A stretch of DNA of 60,111 nucleotides, the filler included, from Fonticula-like sp. SCN 57-25 (Eukaryota), in the NCBI GenBank assembly GCA_001724245.1. It is 10 parts of 10 records of this genome, joined end to end, with 100 filler letters (N's around TTAATTAATTAA, not from the genome) between each part and the next. Parts side by side here need not be neighbours in the genome. Positions count along the whole stretch, not along the records: positions 6,459 to 11,905 come from MEDX01000671.1; 9 more parts are not named here. One strand, 5' to 3'. The notes beneath the pieces were generated by a model, which saw nothing but the letters and a program-made list of their open reading frames with translations, was not told the DNA's origin and searched no databases. A program made the position numbers and the translations under genes. Positions 5,471-40,000 of the stretch are shown here, in pieces. How positions within the stretch are numbered: position 1 is the first letter of the stretch; each line of letters begins with the position of its first letter.

Positions 5471-6348
5471 TCATTCACCAATCAATGCCCTCGCCATTGG
5501 CACATTATAAGCGAAATCCCAAAACGCAACCGTCCCATCCACCGATGCTGACACAACACCCGTCGCGCCCACGTGGACACAATACACTCTACTTCCGTGC
5601 CCCGCAAGTGTATGCAATAGCCTTTTCCCATCCCATATCTTTATAGTAGCATCATATGACCCACTTGCTATACGACGCGCATCCGCATCAACACTGCGCA
5701 CAATATCCACGTGGCCGCGTAGCACACGATGATCACGTGATCTCGTGCATATAACTCTCACGTGACCATCACCTGATCCGGTGATGATCTGGCCGCCGTG
5801 GGCGCGGATGCTGGCAACGCCACGTGGGTGCGGAAAACGGGTAGGAGCGGCCACGTGGGTGTGAGGAAGGACGGCCACGTGGCGGTCACCACTTGCAGAA
5901 TAGATAAAAAATGTGTCTAAATCGAGTGCGTTTACGGCGGCGGTGTGGAGGTTAAGGACGCGGAGGAGGGATTGGCGGGAAAGTGACCACTCGCGGATAC
6001 TAAAAAAGGAAATGAGAAAAGTGGAAATGAGAAGGAAAAGATAAAGGAAAAGAGAGATAAAATGTGGATATGAGTTTGATAAAGTATGTATACAGATACA
6101 GATACAGATATAGATATAGATATAGATATAGATAATATTATAGATACAGATATAATATAGATTCAAATACAGATATAGATACAGATATGAACAATGTCAT
6201 GCAAATATCAAATATAATAATAATAAAGTGCGCACGTGAGGTCTGCTCCGCCCGTGACTAGTTTGTCACCAGCGTACTTTAGGCACGCAACGGCGCCAGA
6301 ATGTCCGCGCAGAGAGTAATATTTATAGTCATCATGACGGTCCCATAC
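5471..6348 (-). CDS. WD40-repeat protein, C-terminal part (FBXW/beta-TrCP-like)
   Basis: GH...WD repeats (LRGHVDIVRSVDADARRIASGSYDATIKIWD); exons 6348-6236, 5999-5471. Confidence 0.85.
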
Positions 6349-6358
6349 CTACAAAGAG

Positions 6359-6458
6359 NNNNNNNNNNNNNNNNNNNNNNNNNNNNNNNNNNNNNNNNNN
6401 NNTTAATTAATTAANNNNNNNNNNNNNNNNNNNNNNNNNNNNNNNNNNNNNNNNNNNN
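6359..6458. other. Artificial contig linker; identical linkers at 11906-12005, 18389-18488, 23810-23909, 29096-29195, 35104-35203, 40780-40879, 45882-45981, 51482-51581
   Basis: N44-TTAATTAATTAA-N44 with stops in all six frames; genes are truncated at each linker. Confidence 0.98.
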
Positions 6459-6561
6459 TACATTCTAATCCCGCCAATCCCAAAATCGTCTCTAATCTGA
6501 GACGATTCGCGTCACCCGAGGCCAAACAACAGCGACCCGGCCCGTGATCATCGCCGCCATC

Positions 6562-7821
6562 ATGAACACTGCGACGCTTCAGACTGTGATTGGCGTGCAC
6601 GTCTCTGCGGGCGACGACGTCAAGGAGGTGTACGTGCGCCTCCCGGTGTCGACAAAGACATCGACGGTGGACGTTGTGCGTACATTGGTGGCCAAGAATT
6701 TCGGGGATGAGGATCCCGCCAAGTTTGCCTTGTACGAGGCGGATTACGTCAAGCGTGCGTGCACTTTTTCGCCATTTTCATATCTATTCTCATATCATTT
6801 TGTGTCTAATTCATTTTTAATTTATAGTTGAGGAGAATGTCGAGTTTGTTGCAATTTCCGACTATGTCGCCAAGTCTGATGACGAGCTCATGTTCCTCAA
6901 GGGCGAAAAGATCACGCTGATCCGCAAGGAGTCCGCCGACGTGTGGTACGGCGAGTGCGAGGGGATCGAGGGGTCCTTTCCGGCGAACCGCGTCAAGCCG
7001 GCTGACAAGCCGCGGCTCGTCGACAACACCACCCGTACGTGACATGCGCCATGGAATGTGGCATGGGGATGGCGGGATGCGGGATGCCGGGGATGCCGCA
7101 TCGGCATCATATTGCTTCATATTGCATCATCATATTGCTCTACTTTACCTCTACTTTTCTCTGCTTTTCTCTGCTTTATTGTGTGCTGATCCATTTGCAG
7201 GTGTGTGCATCAGGGCGCTCAAGGATGGCGAGATCCCGCTGTTTGTGCAGTACAACTGGAAGTCGCACAAGGGGTCGTCCAATTTCACTTTTCTGCTCAA
7301 GGAAAAGGAGGTCGAAGTGCGCGAGAACGCCACAAAGGTACGTGCAATATGGGGCAGTTTGCATGTGCAATTTGGGAATGTTTGCGTGTGTGTTGTAGGG
7401 ATGTTTCGCGGGCATTTGGGCCTTTTGTCGTGTATTGTTGATTCCATAGCTTGCCAATGTGCAATATGAAGTGTAGTTTGCACATGTGCAATATGACACT
7501 CGGTTTGCACACGTGCAATATAAAGTTCAGTTTGCACTTTTATGTCATTTTTTTCTCTTTTTCCTCGTGTATTGTCCCTCTCTTGGCAAGTGATCTGCAT
7601 CATAATGCAAACTGCAATATCCATGCCAACTCGAATGCAAACTCACCCTCTTATAGGAAATGTACCTCAACTTGAGCGCCGCCAAGCTCCGCGGCCTTCT
7701 TGCGACCCTTGATCACCAGGAGAAGCGCCAGCTTGACGAGATCACGGCCAAGTATGAGAAGCAGATGGCCGGGTATAAGCTCGCATTGGTCGAGGCGCGC
7801 AAGCACGTGCAGGCGGCCTAA
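6562..7821 (+). CDS. RASSF-like protein: RA domain with an inserted SH3 domain, plus C-terminal SARAH-like coil
   Basis: Exons 6562-6754, 6828-7034 (SH3: AISDYVAKSDDELMFLKGEKI...WYGECEGIEGSFPANRV), 7201-7337, 7657-7821; RA motifs KFALYE...RALKDGEIPL...FLLKE; SARAH-like LSAAKLRGLLATLDHQEKRQLDEITAKY. Confidence 0.85.
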
Positions 7822-8203
7822 TGTATTCATATTATATTCACACGATCAATACACGGATCATTACGACATATGATGATAGATAGAGATATTGTGGCCATTT
7901 CTTATGATATGGTATGTGATCATGGTATGTGATATGATATGGCTATGGCACGTGATATAGTATGGATATAACAGTGGTATCTTGAGTGGGCCAAAGAGTA
8001 AAAGTTTTCGTCCATGTCACGTGATCATATGGTGTGACTTTAATTGCAAAAAACTATTGTTTTATTATATCCAAAAACGCATACTTACACTGATACCCCA
8101 AAGCAAAAAACTACCAACAATGCTACCAAAATATACTACCTACCATGACATCATCACAAAACATGACGTCACCACTGACACCATCATGACGTCATCACCC
8201 ACA

Positions 8204-9933
8204 TCACATGATGATTGCCGTGGCGTTGTCCGCGTCCATGACGACATCCTCATTCTCGCGCATCATCAGCGACACCATGCGCGTCCCAACCACCTCACAA
8301 TCAATCTGCATATGCTTGGCCACGTGCTCACCATCAGATGACGTAATCACTTTTCCTTGATTCTGCGGAATGAGCAGCGACAGCCGCGGCGAGCCGCCCG
8401 CGCCCTTTTCATTGGGCATCACGGGCATGGCGTGCGCGCAAAACATGTACGCAGTGTCGTCGCGCGGCTCAAACGGAACAGAGGCGGGCGAAGAGCCCAC
8501 GTGGACGGCGACGGATGTGATTGGCTCGTTTTTGGGGGAGGCGCGCAGCGATTGGTCGAGCCACGATCGCAGGTCGACCGGCTCGACGGGTGTGTGGCTG
8601 TCGGTCAGGTTGGCCGCCAGCGAAGCCGACGCCAAAGTAGCAGAAGCAGATGATGACGTAGACGATGACGTAATCACAGGCGACGCAACAGATGACGTAA
8701 TCACATTTGAGGCGGACGTCACTGCCGGGGGGGCCGAAAGGAGCGGCACGAGGGCGGACGTCGGCGGCGGCGACGCACTCGACGCCGCGCCGGAAATAGA
8801 AAGAATCGATCGACCGCCGCCGATCACGTCATTCTCGGCCAATGGGCGCTGCAGGATGGTCGGCGCGGCGATCACGAGCAGCGCGAGGCCCATGAGCGCG
8901 ACGATCTGGGACGCGCGCGCGAGGGGGCGGCGGCCGCCCTGGGGGGGGGGGGCGAGGGACCCCCCGGGCTGCATAGTGGCCGACGCGCCGCCGCTTTCGA
9001 GGACGGCCACGCGGCGGCGGAGCGATTCGTTTTCGCGGCGGAGCGCGTCGACTTGCTGCTCGAGGGTGGCGAGGTACTCTTTGTGGCGCTTGCGAGAGAG
9101 GCTCGCGGCTTCGCGGTTCTTGATCAGGCGTTTTTCGCGCTTGAAAGACATATTCTCTGTGGAAAGAGGGGTAAGTAAAAGGGAAAGTAAAGAAAAAGCG
9201 ATGAAAAAGTAAAGAAAAAGACATCAAAACAACAACAACAAACAAGAAACGATCATGATCACGAAGCCACTGATGCCACCGATGATCCCCACCATCTTAT
9301 CCCGCCATGACGCATCCCAAAAAGTCGTCTATAATAACGTACGCGGTGGCGACTGCTCGGGCTTGAGCATCATCCCGGCCTGCTGCTCGTCCATCGTGCC
9401 CATCATCGGTGCATGCTGCATGGGGATCACCGGGAACTCTGACTTCATCCCCGCGAGCGTCCTGTTGCCGCTCTCGGGCGACGATGCCGGCGAGTACTCG
9501 ATCTTTACGTAAGAGTCCGATCCCGCCGAGTCGCTGTCGGACCACGCGAACGTGGAGGGCGAGTCGGCCGATGGCGCGGCGGCATTCTTGTAGAGGGCCT
9601 CATCCGAAGCGGGCAAAAAGGGGTCGGTAGTGTCCGCAACATCGTCGCAAAAAACGGAACTGCTCAAAGGAGAGCTAAAAAAGTCATTTCCGTCGTTTTC
9701 GGGAGAGCGCGGGACCGAATATTCACTGCAGAGTGAGAACAGAGATGGGCAATCATCAGCAAAAGAGAAAAAAAAAAGGTGGCGAAAGAGGAGGAAATGT
9801 CGTACGCAGGAAACCCGCCAAACGAAACCTTTTAATAAAATAACGTTAATAACGGCAAGAAAAAAAAGAGCACGAAAAAGCAGCGCACCTCGTCCAGGTG
9901 GTGGAAAAGGGGATTCGCGAACCCGCTATCCAT
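8204..9933 (-). CDS. ATF6: ATF6-like ER-membrane bZIP transcription factor
   Basis: Exons 9933-9889, 9828-9806, 9659-9343, 9156-8204; bZIP KREKRLIKNREAASLSRKRHKEY, TM helix, S1P-like site RSIL, lumenal motifs RDDTAY, PRLSLLIP and MQIDCEV. Confidence 0.85.
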
Positions 9934-37081: not shown

Positions 37082-40000
37082 ATGCTGTCGCTGCGAGTGC
37101 GGGCCGCTGCCCTCGCGCCATCCCGCCGCGCGCACCTCGCCATCGCCGTGACTCCGTCTAAGAATGACTGGGAAACGCCCGGGGACGAGCTTCGTTCAAG
37201 GTACGATGCCGTCATTGTCGGCGGCGGCCACAATGGCCTTGTAGCGGTACGGCCCTTGATGCCCTGCATCCTGCCCGCTAATGTGCGTCACAGGCGTGCT
37301 ACCTTGCCAAGGCCGGCAAGTCCGTCTGCGTCCTCGAGCGCCGTCACGTCATTGGCGGCGCCGCCGTCACCGAAGAGATCGTCCCCGGCTACAAATTCAG
37401 CCGCGCCTCTTACCTCCTGAGCCTCTTTCGCCAGAGCATCATTGACGAGCTCGATCTCAAGCAGGTCGGATTCCGCGTTCATCTCCGTGATCCCTCCTCC
37501 TTTACTCCCCTTCGCGATGGCAGCGGCTACTTACTTTTAGGCTCTGATGCGGCCCTCAATCACGCCGAGATCAGCAAGTTTTCCCGCAAGGATGCCGACG
37601 CCTACGCATCCTACGAGACGATGCTGGGCCGCATCGCCGCCGCGATGGACCCGCTGCTCGACAGCGCGCCGCCTTCCCTGTCGGGCTCGCTCGCCTCGCA
37701 GGTGCGCGCGGGGATCCCGCTCGCGCGATTCGCCTCGCAGCTCGGTCGCGACATTCCAGATGCGCTGCGGATCATGACGGCGCCGGCCGCGCAGATCCTG
37801 AACGAGCACTTTGAGAGCGACGTGCTCAAGGCGACATTGGCGACGGACGCAGTGATTGGTGCATTTGTCGGGCCAGAGACACCGGGCAGCGCGTACGCAG
37901 AGGAGCGGAAAGGGACAAGGAAACGGACAAGGATAGGGGCAAGGGATAGAGAAGGAGTAGGGGATAGTGGGTATTGAATCTCATTCCCGCCATCATTCAA
38001 TGACGTAATGATGTATGCTGATGATGTCATATGTGTTAATGGTGTGAATATGCCTTGTACATTGACCATGTATCATGTGTATCATGTATCATTACCATGT
38101 CACAAGTACCATACCCATGTATGATCATCATGGATTGTATCATGTATCATTACCATGTACCATATATCATACTCATGTATCATGTATCATGTATCATAGC
38201 ATCATTCTTCTATCTTTCTCACTCCCTTCCTCTCTTTTAGTTATGTCCTCTTCCATCACGTGATGGGCAACCTCGAAGGCCGCCGCGGCGCCTGGGGCTA
38301 CGTCCAAGGCGGCATGGGCGCCCTTTCACTCGGCATGGGCGCCCTTTCACTCGCCCTCGCCCGCAGAGCAAAGTCACTCGGTGTCCACGTGGCCATCAAT
38401 GCCCCTGTCAGCCGCATCCATCTCGACAATAATCACGTGACTGCTGTTGAATTATCCTCTAGTGGTAATGTCTCTAGTGGTAGTGTGTCTGGTCGTTCGA
38501 TAGAGACAAAGTTGGCCATGTCGAATGCGACGCCTCACGTGACCTTTAAAGAGTTGCTTGATGCTGATAGGGTGGATAGTTTGAAAGGGTTAAATAGGGC
38601 GATTGGGGCGATTGATTATGGGTCTGCTACGATGAAGATTAATGTGGCTGTGAGGGGGTTGCCGGTGTTTAGGGCGCTTTCAGGGGGGGGGATGTATAGG
38701 GGGGCATATGAGGGGATGGCGAAAGGTACGAAGAAAATATAATGGGTAGTATGGGTATGAGTATGAGTATGATGTGTAGTATGAGTATGAGTATCATGAG
38801 TATGAGTATCATGAGTATGAGTATGAGTATGAGTATTGGTATGAGTATGAATATGAGTATGAGTATGAATATGGGTATGAGTATGAGAATGAGTATGAGT
38901 ATGAGTATCATTGATGAGTATCAGTATCATTGATGAGTATCATTGATGACCATAAGTATCATTGATGAGTATGAGTATCATTGATGAGTGTTATGGTGAT
39001 GAACATGATCATGAATAATGATCATTGACTATCATGATGAGTATCATTGAGTATCATGAGTATTATGAGTATCATGTATCATTGAGTATCATTGAGTATC
39101 AATTGACACATGTTACATATATTATATGATATTCCTCTCTCTTCATCTACTAACCCTCCTTCTCTTCCCTTAGGTACTCCCCCTAATCACCCCCTTCCAC
39201 ACCACCAATGCACAACACACTTTGAAGAACACGTGGACGAAATCCAATCTGCCTATGTAGACGCACTATCTGGATGCCCCTCAAGTAAACCTGTTATTGA
39301 AATGTGTGTGCCTTCTGTATTGGATAGGACAATTGCACCTGAGGGTGACCACGTGGTCAATCTGTTTGTGCAGTATGCGCCGTATAGGCTGGCCAATGGG
39401 AGGTCGTGGGATGACGAGAAGGAGGCATACGCCGATAAGGGTACAAAGGGAGAAAGGGAATGGGAACTGGTCACGTGAGAGTATGTGTCACGTGATAGTA
39501 GTCATGTGATAATAGTCATGTTTATGTTTATTATTGTTCATGTCATGGTGCATGTGCTTATGGTGTCATTTTATGACACTTTTATGTCACTTTATGACAC
39601 TTTTATGTCACTTTATGACACTTTTATGTCACTTTTATGTCACTTTTCACATGTCCCATATGATCATAACATACTACATTCACCATATTCACCCATCTTA
39701 CCCTGTTTCTTCTCTTTTTTCATAGTCTTTTCCATAATTGACTCTTATGCCCCCGGCTTCTCCGCTTCGGTCGTCGGCCGCGACATTCTCAGCCCACTCG
39801 ACCTCGAACGCACTTTTGGACTCACTGGCGGCGTACGATTGTTGCTATTTATAGTATGTTATACTAACCATATGCAATCTGCAAACATATCTACCATCAT
39901 ATCATATCTACAATGTGCCATCATATCATGCATATCTACATACGTATCTACTATCTACAATCATATCATACATATCTACTATCTACAACCATATCTACCA

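What the first reader, a model, noticed from the sequence alone, without database searches (positions are those of the whole stretch)
6755..7200. SH3 domain inserted as a symmetric cassette exon inside the RA domain of a RASSF-like protein
Seen: exon 2 (6828-7034, 207 nt = 69 codons) encodes a complete SH3 domain and is flanked by two phase-1 introns. Skipping it gives KFALYEADYVK-R-VCIRALKDGEIPL, which restores a contiguous RA domain aligning by eye with animal C-RASSF (KFALFE...VYLRKL.DDEQPL), followed by a SARAH-like helix. Known: RA+SARAH proteins link Ras to Hippo/MST kinases, and phase 1-1 modules are the signature of exon shuffling. Inference: a domain-within-domain insertion, possibly an alternative-splicing switch, in a unicellular Hippo-pathway adaptor.
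Basis: partly seen in the sequence, partly recalled or inferred. Interest (0 to 1): 0.8.

Follow-up and report, generated by a model that had tools for sequence, protein, structure and literature searches.

The report
SH3 domain nested inside RASSF-like RA domain
A small four-exon gene encodes a Ras-association domain split by a complete SH3 domain and followed by a RASSF-type dimerisation helix, a layout shared by its relatives in amoebae allied to fungi and most likely built in permanently, not switched by splicing.

Summary
The gene at 6562-7821 (+) has four exons. Exon 2 (6828-7034, 207 nt, phase 1-1) is a complete SH3 domain (Pfam E 1.6e-10). Exons 1 and 3 match the two collinear halves of Pfam RA (profile 6-53 and 62-91). 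Exon 4 is a RASSF-type SARAH helix: a family profile hits RASSF5 SARAH structures at E 2.8e-5.

The nested architecture is real and conserved. Five of five full-length transcript-derived relatives (56-57% identical) carry RA-N/SH3/RA-C/SARAH, and three genomic relatives are collinear with it. A near-identical metagenome contig differs in exon 2 at five sites, all synonymous.

The splicing-switch idea has no support. No SH3-less form was found. In three of three relatives with genomic cover the SH3 is itself split by a further intron. No RNA data here cover exon 2; one RNA contig confirms only intron 3.

The one named relative is labelled Nuclearia (Holomycota), so the holozoan setting is doubtful and the Hippo link is untested.

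Both structure models were low-confidence over the RA halves.

Verdict: a new variant of a known kind, a RASSF-like adaptor with a constitutive nested SH3. Interest is moderate.

The parts
6562..6754 (+). Exon 1: start codon plus the N-terminal half of the RA domain (strands 1-2, helix 1, strand 3). It ends in phase 1.
   Evidence: Translation. Pfam RA profile 6-53/93, 19.3 bits. 79% identical to P0005. A family N-half profile hits only two PDB chains, both RA domains: RASSF5 3ddc_B (E 0.73) and afadin 6amb_B (E 1.2).
6755..6827 (+). Intron 1 (73 nt, GTGCGT..TAG, phase 1).
   Evidence: The position is kept in 6 of 6 genomic read-through relatives, which turn into unrelated sequence right after the exon 1 homologue.
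6828..7034 (+). Exon 2: a complete SH3 domain with short linkers (207 nt, phase 1-1).
   Evidence: Pfam SH3_1 E 1.6e-10, SH3_9 E 2e-10. Best solved relative is the PRMT2 SH3, 1x2p_A, E 1e-12. 5 of 5 differences from L001 are synonymous third-position changes. 26 of 69 positions are invariant across 6 family members.
7035..7200 (+). Intron 2 (166 nt, GTACGT..CAG, phase 1).
   Evidence: P0021 reads through an equivalent acceptor directly before the same VCIRALKD start of the RA C-half.
7201..7337 (+). Exon 3: the C-terminal half of the RA domain.
   Evidence: Pfam RA profile 62-91/93, E 0.12. The only PDB hit is 3ec8_A, E 0.1. 24 of 46 positions are invariant in the family.
7338..7656 (+). Intron 3 (319 nt, GTACGT..TAG, phase 0). 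It holds two short tandem repeats.
   Evidence: A contig of run X1 joins 7337|7657. Repeats at 7342-7390 and 7457-7537. This intron is absent in the relative P0021.
7657..7821 (+). Exon 4: the SARAH-type C-terminal helix and the stop codon.
   Evidence: Pfam Nore1-SARAH 15.2 bits, E 0.019. A profile of 7 family C-termini hits RASSF5 SARAH chains 4oh8_B (E 2.8e-5), 4lgd_E (8.1e-5) and 2ymy_A (0.0075) as its top 3 of 6 PDB hits. 7 of 7 members match Nore1-SARAH at E <= 1.

Best explanation
This is a 233-residue RASSF-like adaptor in which a whole SH3 domain is a permanent insertion in the hairpin between strands 3 and 4 of the Ras-association (RA) domain. A RASSF-type SARAH dimerisation helix follows directly. 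Shown here: the exon structure, the SH3, the two collinear RA halves, the RASSF-type SARAH, conservation of the nested layout across the family, and purifying selection on exon 2. Inferred: the RA domain binds a GTP-loaded Ras-family GTPase through strand 2 and helix 1, the edge of the sheet opposite the strand 3-4 hairpin (recalled from solved Ras-RA complexes). If so, the SH3 projects away from that surface and adds a second, independent docking site. The SARAH helix would dimerise, either with itself or with another SARAH protein. The protein would then be a three-way adaptor: GTPase, SH3 ligand and SARAH partner. The SH3 probably entered through a phase-1 intron in an ancestor of this clade. 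It is spliced in constitutively.
For: Gene model and phases. Intron 3 splicing. Domains in the window: (SH3 40.8 bits; RA halves at profile 6-53 and 62-91; SARAH 15.2 bits). Spacing: without exon 2, 9 residues would span the 8 unmatched RA profile positions 54-61 (from the coordinates). Orthologues: RA is above Pfam's cut-off of 21 bits in 5 of 5 full-length relatives. These are P0006 22.1, and P0017 25.8, P0018 24.3, P0019 30.8 and P0020 28.9, the last four each with 2 matched stretches. All 5 carry the SH3 between the halves, and the window protein is 55.6-57.1% identical to each over 224-227 positions. Genomic relatives are collinear. P0016 has RA-N, then SH3, then RA-C read out of frame. 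P0021 has SH3, RA-C and SARAH. P0015 has RA-N and SH3. Selection: L001 is 99.4% identical to the window, and its 5 exon 2 differences are all synonymous. SARAH type; only RASSF5 chains are hit, no MST chain. RA type; the few PDB hits are RA domains, RASSF5 first for the N-half. Secondary structure in both AlphaFold models runs strand, strand, helix, strand, [SH3], strand, strand, long helix, and the SH3 and the helix are confident.
Against: No RNA evidence covers exon 2 in this organism; the one spliced contig spans only 7278-7851. Each RA half of the window is below Pfam's cut-off on its own (19.3 and 13.4 against 21). No single family member reaches the Nore1-SARAH cut-off; the best whole-protein score is 18.2 against 21. 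PDB hits for the RA halves are weak (E 0.1 to 1.2), and exon 1 alone gave only two unrelated weak hits. Both AlphaFold models have pLDDT mostly under 60 across the RA halves, so the three-dimensional nesting is not shown. Several canonical SH3 ligand-contact aromatics are replaced (alignment; the canonical positions are recalled), so a classical PxxP ligand is uncertain. A paper reports that Fonticula alba and yeast lack a Hippo kinase with a SARAH domain (PMC7035326, passages). If that holds for this organism, the classical RASSF partner is missing. No binding was tested.
Confidence: 0.7

Rival explanations
1. Exon 2 is a cassette exon. Regulated skipping switches the protein between a plain RA+SARAH adaptor (164 aa) and an SH3-bearing form (233 aa).
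For: Exon 2 is symmetric (phase 1-1), and skipping keeps the frame and a normal-length RA hairpin. In this lineage the SH3 is a single exon, unlike in 3 relatives, so one skipping event would be enough.
Against: 5 of 5 transcript-derived orthologues include the SH3. None of the 8 hits in the length range 127-405 aa lacks it. The SH3 is conserved about as well as the RA halves: 26/69 invariant positions against 27/64 and 24/46. Its polymorphisms are all synonymous. The splice sites flanking exon 2 look like those of the confirmed intron 3. Transcriptome assemblies report mainly the major isoform, so a minor skipped form is not excluded.
Confidence: 0.1
2. The protein is not a true RASSF relative. 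An RA domain with an SH3 acquired a generic C-terminal coiled coil, and the likeness to SARAH is convergent.
For: Single-sequence Nore1-SARAH scores lie below Pfam's cut-off. Short amphipathic helices give spurious hits, such as T7_gp14. The RA halves are not specifically RASSF-like at significant E-values. The exon 1 search of 1.84 billion representatives found no animal RASSF.
Against: The top 3 of 6 PDB hits of the family C-terminal profile are all RASSF5 SARAH, at E 2.8e-5, 8.1e-5 and 0.0075. The alignment spans 38-43 residues and includes a shared KYDK motif. 7 of 7 members hit Nore1-SARAH. The domain order, RA followed directly by SARAH, is that of the classical RASSFs. The best PDB hit of the N-half profile is the RASSF5 RA domain.
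Confidence: 0.15
3. Exon 2 is not part of this gene's mature mRNA in this organism. It would be a decaying pseudo-exon or a gene-model artefact.
For: There is no direct RNA cover of exon 2.
Against: The frame is open, the SH3 score is full-length, and the splice signals are canonical. 5 of 5 differences from L001 are synonymous. Homologous SH3 sequence lies at the same place in every informative relative.
Confidence: 0.03

Closest known systems
Classical (C-terminal) RASSF proteins: RASSF1-6 of vertebrates, dRASSF, RASSF5/NORE1
   Same: An RA domain is followed directly by a C-terminal SARAH helix. The family's SARAH profile hits RASSF5 SARAH structures, and the N-half profile's best PDB hit is the RASSF5 RA domain.
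   Different: The RA domain is interrupted by a whole SH3. There is no C1 or other N-terminal region, and the protein begins with the RA domain. The family comes from amoebae allied to Nuclearia and not from animals. Ras and MST/Hippo binding are untested.
N-terminal RASSF proteins (RASSF7-10, Meru)
   Same: The RA domain lies at the very N-terminus, followed by coiled-coil sequence (architecture recalled, not tested here).
   Different: Those proteins lack a SARAH domain (recalled). Here the C-terminal helix matches RASSF5 SARAH, and an SH3 is nested in the RA.
SH3 domain of PRMT2, and the SH3 domains of GRB2 and intersectin
   Same: These are the best solved sequence relatives of exon 2: 1x2p_A E 1e-12, GRB2 6e-12, intersectin-2 1.1e-11. 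The alignment with PRMT2 shows the same departure from the canonical tyrosines.
   Different: Those SH3 domains stand as separate modules in a chain and are not inserted in a loop of another domain.
Fungal Ste50/Ubc2-type adaptors (SAM + RA, with C-terminal SH3 domains in basidiomycetes)
   Same: They combine RA and SH3 in one small Ras-pathway adaptor on the fungal side of the opisthokonts (recalled, not tested here).
   Different: The domains are arranged in series, not nested. There is a SAM domain and no SARAH. No sequence relation was found here.

Membership tests
Classical RASSF (RA + SARAH) | A Ras-association (RA) domain recognised by the Pfam RA model | tested here: met
   5 of 5 full-length orthologues score above the 21-bit cut-off: 22.1, 25.8, 24.3, 30.8 and 28.9. 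The window's two halves score 19.3 and 13.4 bits at collinear profile positions. Each is below the cut-off alone, and the joined protein could not be handed to the tool.
Classical RASSF (RA + SARAH) | A SARAH helix directly C-terminal to the RA domain | tested here: met
   The family profile against PDB gives RASSF5 SARAH at E 2.8e-5, 8.1e-5 and 0.0075 as its top 3 hits. Nore1-SARAH is hit in 7 of 7 members at E <= 1, best 2.7e-4. Caveat: no single sequence reaches Pfam's 21-bit cut-off; the best whole-protein score is 18.2.
Classical RASSF (RA + SARAH) | A contiguous RA domain | tested here: not met
   69 codons encoding an SH3 lie between RA profile positions 53 and 62. The same holds in all 5 full-length orthologues.
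Classical RASSF (RA + SARAH) | Binds GTP-bound Ras-family GTPases | not testable with these tools
Classical RASSF (RA + SARAH) | SARAH-mediated pairing with an MST/Hippo kinase | not tested
PMC7035326 (passages) reports no Hippo in Fonticula alba, a member of the same broad group.
SH3 domain | A full-length match to the SH3 models above their cut-offs | tested here: met
   SH3_1 40.8 bits (cut-off 22.9), SH3_9 40.8 (30) and SH3_2 33.1 (21.8), all covering the whole profiles. 244 PDB sequences match at E <= 0.001.
SH3 domain | The canonical proline-peptide contact residues (ALYDY tyrosines, the WW tryptophan, the P and Y of the ..FP.NYV motif; positions recalled) | tested here: inconclusive
   The alignments show that the tryptophan and the FP proline are kept. 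The first ALYDY tyrosine is S in the window and A in relatives. The second is Y in the window and H or N in relatives. The NYV tyrosine is R, L or K.
Cassette (alternatively skipped) exon | A symmetric exon whose removal keeps the frame | tested here: met
   Phase 1-1. The skipped CDS gives 164 aa without a stop.
Cassette (alternatively skipped) exon | Both the included and the skipped mRNA are observed | not testable with these tools
   Only one run was listed, and its single contig covers only 7278-7851. Among relatives only the included form was seen, in 5 of 5.
Exon-shuffled module | The domain coincides with one exon flanked by introns of the same phase | tested here: inconclusive
   This is met in the window. 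In 3 of 3 relatives with genomic cover, a further intron splits the SH3 after its tryptophan. Flanking intron 1 is conserved in 6 of 6 relatives.

The most novel reading that the evidence does not exclude
RASSF-type RA-SARAH adaptors predate the split between the animal and fungal lineages, and survive in nucleariid-like amoebae in a form where an SH3 is nested in the RA hairpin. Because both ends of the SH3 are anchored in the RA sheet, ligand binding to the SH3 and GTPase binding to the RA could be mechanically coupled. The protein would then act as a coincidence detector feeding a SARAH dimer, possibly in organisms that lack a SARAH-bearing Hippo kinase. In this lineage, loss of the intron inside the SH3 has also made the module a single symmetric exon that could be skipped.
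Probability: 0.2. Interest if true: 0.7.

Novelty: new variant of a known kind. Interest (0 to 1): 0.5.

Why it matters
RASSF proteins link Ras to the Hippo/MST kinases in animals. In the papers I could search, nothing describes them outside animals and their closest relatives. A conserved RA-SARAH protein on the fungal side of the opisthokonts would push the origin of this adaptor back to the common ancestor of animals and fungi. It would also raise the question of what its SARAH helix pairs with where a SARAH-bearing Hippo kinase is reported missing. A whole SH3 tolerated in a hairpin of a ubiquitin-like domain is also a clean natural case of domain-in-domain insertion at intron positions, useful for studying how new adaptor architectures arise and whether nested domains talk to each other. 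It remains a domain-architecture finding without functional data, so its weight is moderate.

Tried and rejected
1. RNA evidence for exon 2: the look-up of sequencing runs listed one run and no holder on record as RNA. Its single 260-nt contig covers 7278-7851 only. Nothing can be said about inclusion or skipping of exon 2 in this organism.

2. Complex prediction on the two RA halves of P0017 (residues 1-63 and 133-179): no verdict, score 0.30 against a mark of 0.34. The controls were not run and my alignment was not used.

3. Two AlphaFold2 runs on 9-row alignments, with P0017 and then P0019 first: mean pLDDT 60.8 and 60.5. The SH3 and the C-terminal helix are confident, and the RA halves are mostly under 60. 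I ran no fold search on such models.

4. Word-index searches: the SH3 exon at 'longer' lengths scored none of 23 candidates. Exon 1 at 'longer' scored 1 of 26.

5. The protein-atlas search with P0019: no usable hit.

6. Exon 1 alone against PDB: two unrelated weak hits.

7. A 16-row alignment with the genomic read-through relatives showed the intron positions. It put intron-derived residues into real columns, so I did not use it for folding.

9. Rfam and tRNA scans of the window: nothing. Antisense ORFs over the gene: no Pfam family.

10. Literature searches found no paper on a RASSF in nucleariids or on an SH3 nested in an RA domain. The 2012 Cell Reports paper on the premetazoan origin of Hippo signalling was not held under the DOI or under a PMC id that I recalled. 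I asked for no supplementary files. The component tables of PMC7035326 may list RASSF or SARAH proteins that I did not see.

11. The joined (spliced) window protein could not be given to Pfam, the structure tools or the searches. It was analysed only inside scripts.

Full report
**1. What is in the sequence**

Reading 5500-8500 and translating the pieces gives a four-exon gene on the + strand.
- Exon 1 is 6562-6754.
- Intron 1 is 6755-6827 (73 nt, GTGCGT..TAG).
- Exon 2 is 6828-7034 (207 nt).
- Intron 2 is 7035-7200 (166 nt, GTACGT..CAG).
- Exon 3 is 7201-7337.
- Intron 3 is 7338-7656 (319 nt, GTACGT..TAG).
- Exon 4 is 7657-7821 and ends in TAA.

Exon 2 is entered and left in phase 1. The joined CDS is 702 nt (233 aa). 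Leaving out exon 2 gives 164 aa. Neither has an internal stop. An in-frame stop lies upstream of the ATG at 6493-6495.

The window carries an artificial joint at 6360-6459: runs of N around TTAATTAATTAA. The contig that holds the gene therefore starts at 6460. A metagenome contig, L001, matches window 6459-8631 at 99.4% identity and extends 469 nt further upstream. That stretch is AT-rich sequence in which I saw no coding-like stretch by eye, so the ATG at 6562 is the likely start.

**2. Domains**

Pfam on the four exon translations:
- Exon 2 is a full-length SH3: SH3_1 at 40.8 bits against a cut-off of 22.9, E 1.6e-10.
- Exon 1 matches RA profile positions 6-53 of 93 (19.3 bits).
- Exon 3 matches RA positions 62-91 (13.4 bits, E 0.12).
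- Exon 4 matches Nore1-SARAH (15.2 bits, E 0.019).

The two RA hits are collinear. From their coordinates, the skipped form would leave 9 residues for the 8 unmatched profile positions 54-61. The SH3 exon, with its own short linkers, therefore sits exactly in what would otherwise be a normal-length turn.

The best solved relatives of the SH3 are PRMT2 (E 1e-12), GRB2 and intersectin. Exon 3 alone has a single PDB hit, 3ec8_A (E 0.1). By recall this entry is an RA-domain structure (RADIL); the table names it only as FLJ10324.

**3. Relatives, and the key result**

A full HMMER search of 1.84 billion representatives with exon 1 gave 10 proteins at E <= 0.001.
- Six belong to this family: P0005, P0006, P0007, P0009, P0010 and P0012.
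- Two (P0008, P0011) are unrelated by Pfam.
- Two long proteins (P0013, P0014) I did not examine.

A word-index search with P0006 gave 8 hits among 336 candidates. Five of the relatives found in all are full-length, intron-free sequences: P0006, P0018 and P0020 from JGI contigs of 906-3116 nt, and P0017 and P0019 from EukProt transcriptomes.

All five have the same order: RA N-half, SH3, RA C-half, SARAH-like helix. Pfam RA is above its cut-off in all five, with two matched stretches in four of them. The spliced window protein, joined inside a script, is 55.6-57.1% identical to each over 224-227 positions. Invariant positions across the six sequences are 27/64 in exon 1, 26/69 in exon 2, 24/46 in exon 3 and 15/54 in exon 4. 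The SH3 is thus about as conserved as the RA halves.

**4. Genomic relatives and introns**

Several hits are prokaryote-style read-through ORFs on genomic contigs, and they reveal intron positions.
- After the exon 1 homologue, 6 of 6 such relatives run into unrelated sequence at the same point: P0005, P0007, P0009, P0010/P0015, P0012/P0016 and P0022. Intron 1 is therefore old.
- P0021 reads into the same VCIRALKD start of the RA C-half, which is consistent with intron 2 at the same place. It has no intron 3.
- In 3 of 3 relatives that cover the SH3 in genomic DNA (P0010/P0015, P0012/P0016, P0021), the reading frame leaves the SH3 right after its conserved tryptophan. That indicates an extra intron inside the SH3, which the window lacks.
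- In P0016 the RA N-half (residues 48-107), the SH3 (from 161) and the RA C-half (318-346, best matched by a non-coding frame of the window's exon 3) are collinear on one contig.

The nested layout holds in every informative relative: 5 transcripts and 3 genomic records. 'One SH3, one exon' is particular to the window's lineage.

**5. Selection on exon 2**

L001 differs from the window at 12 bases and one single-base indel. Four substitutions and the indel lie in intron 1, five lie in exon 2, three lie downstream of the gene, and none lies in exons 1, 3 or 4 or in introns 2 and 3. All five exon 2 changes are third-position and synonymous. This fits a translated exon under purifying selection and argues against a dead or spurious exon.

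**6. RNA evidence**

One public run was listed, with no holder on record as RNA. Its single matching contig (260 nt) joins 7337 to 7657. This confirms intron 3 and shows the locus is transcribed, but it covers only 7278-7851. There is no evidence either way on exon 2 in this organism.

Among relatives only the SH3-containing mRNA was seen (5 of 5), and no SH3-less protein appeared among the 8 hits, which searched lengths of 127-405 aa. That is weak evidence against a switch, because assemblies favour the major isoform.

**7. Is the C-terminal helix a SARAH, and is the protein RASSF-like?**

A profile of seven family C-termini (alignment A2) gave 6 PDB hits at E <= 10. The top three are all RASSF5 SARAH chains: 4oh8_B (E 2.8e-5), 4lgd_E (8.1e-5) and 2ymy_A (0.0075). 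They align over 38-43 residues with a shared KYDK motif.

All 7 members hit Pfam Nore1-SARAH at E <= 1 (best 2.7e-4), and only 1 of 7 hits Mst1_SARAH. No single sequence reaches Pfam's 21-bit cut-off; the best whole-protein score is 18.2.

A profile of seven N-halves (A5) gave only two PDB hits. Both are RA domains, with RASSF5 first (3ddc_B, E 0.73; afadin 6amb_B, E 1.2).

Taken together, RA followed directly by a RASSF-type SARAH justifies the label 'RASSF-like'. Orthology with animal RASSFs is not shown.

**8. Structure**

Two AlphaFold2 runs on shallow alignments gave mean pLDDT of 60.8 and 60.5. The SH3 scores about 80-90 and the long C-terminal helix about 70-89. The RA halves are mostly under 60.

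The secondary-structure order is what a ubiquitin-like RA with an insertion between strands 3 and 4 predicts: strand, strand, helix, strand, [SH3], strand, strand, helix. The three-dimensional nesting is not demonstrated. A complex prediction of the two RA halves gave no verdict (listed under what was tried).

**9. Whose gene is it?**

No genome is held for the window. The neighbouring genes are ordinary eukaryotic ones: WD40, bZIP, a DEAD-box helicase, UCH, VWA, the E2 of a 2-oxoacid dehydrogenase, a carboxypeptidase and an isocitrate/isopropylmalate dehydrogenase.

The only named relative is a EukProt record labelled Nuclearia (P0017). Nuclearia belongs to Rotosphaerida within Opisthokonta, the amoebae that a preprint abstract calls the deepest branch of Holomycota. 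At about 57% identity the window's organism is a relative, not that species. Its GC per 2-kb window is 0.42-0.65, compared with the 44% reported for the N. thermophila genome (abstract).

One paper states that Fonticula alba and yeast lack Hippo (kinase plus SARAH), while Amoebozoa, Apusozoa and a chytrid have it (PMC7035326, passages only). Whether this organism has such a kinase could not be tested.

**10. How it most likely works**

Shown: a conserved, selected, nested RA(SH3)-SARAH architecture.

Inferred from established knowledge of RA and SARAH domains (recalled from solved Ras-RA complexes and SARAH dimers such as those hit):
- The RA binds a GTP-loaded Ras-family GTPase through strand 2 and helix 1.
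- The strand 3-4 hairpin lies at the opposite edge of the sheet, so the SH3 need not block that surface and can add a second docking site.
- The SARAH helix forms a homo- or heterodimer.

The protein would be a compact three-way adaptor. The SH3 keeps its tryptophan and the FP proline but has lost several canonical tyrosines (positions recalled), as has the PRMT2 SH3. Its ligand may therefore be atypical. I put 0.7 on a constitutive nested adaptor, 0.1 on a splicing switch, 0.15 on a non-RASSF origin for the helix, and 0.03 on an exon 2 artefact.

**11. Novelty**

Eight full-text searches found no paper on a RASSF in nucleariids or on an SH3 nested in an RA domain. The Atlas search gave no usable hit. 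The key 2012 paper on premetazoan Hippo origins was not held, and I asked for no supplements, so a prior mention cannot be ruled out.

I rate this a new variant of a known kind: a RASSF-like adaptor with a nested SH3, conserved in a poorly sampled protist clade. Interest is moderate (0.5). It is a clean, well-supported architectural novelty with evolutionary implications, but it has no functional data, and its most exciting element, the splicing switch, is unsupported.

Noticed in passing
window 6360-6459: Runs of N around TTAATTAATTAA. This looks like an artificial six-frame-stop linker joining two contigs. L001 carries 469 nt of real upstream sequence that is found nowhere in the window, so the WD40 gene at 5474-6196 (-) need not be a true neighbour.
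   Followed up: partly
window 6772-7003 against L001: 10 of the 13 differences between the window and L001 (9 substitutions and the 1-nt indel) fall in about 230 nt spanning the 3' part of intron 1 and exon 2. The other roughly 1,940 aligned bases hold 3. This is a locally divergent haplotype patch over the SH3 exon; the cause is unknown (strain mixture, gene conversion or assembly chimera).
   Followed up: partly
whole window, e.g. 5570-5881, 38257-39494: The palindrome CACGTG occurs 66 times against 19.35 +/- 4.34 expected, and 0 of 100 shuffles reach 66. It is clustered in AT-rich intergenic stretches. It may be a common promoter element of this genome.
   Followed up: no
window 7342-7390 and 7457-7537 (intron 3): Two short tandem arrays, 23 nt x 2.1 and 27 nt x 3.0, share a GTGCAATATG..GTTTGCA core. 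The relative P0021 has no intron at this site.
   Followed up: no
window 7833 (3' UTR): The RNA contig of run X1 has 5 extra bases (AAACG) after 7833 and is otherwise identical over 255 aligned bases. This is a strain or allele difference.
   Followed up: no
window 6090-6188 and 7905-7969: AT-rich microsatellite-like arrays flank the gene: (ATATAG)n x 16.7 upstream of the linker and a 12-nt unit x 5.5 just after the stop codon.
   Followed up: no
window 8207-9223 (-): The downstream neighbour on the opposite strand is a bZIP transcription factor (bZIP_1 E 2.5e-13), convergent with the RASSF-like gene.
   Followed up: no
P0010/P0015, P0012/P0016, P0021 (relatives): Intron gain or loss within the family. 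An intron inside the SH3, after the conserved W, is present in three relatives and absent in the window. Intron 3 is present in the window and absent in P0021.
   Followed up: partly
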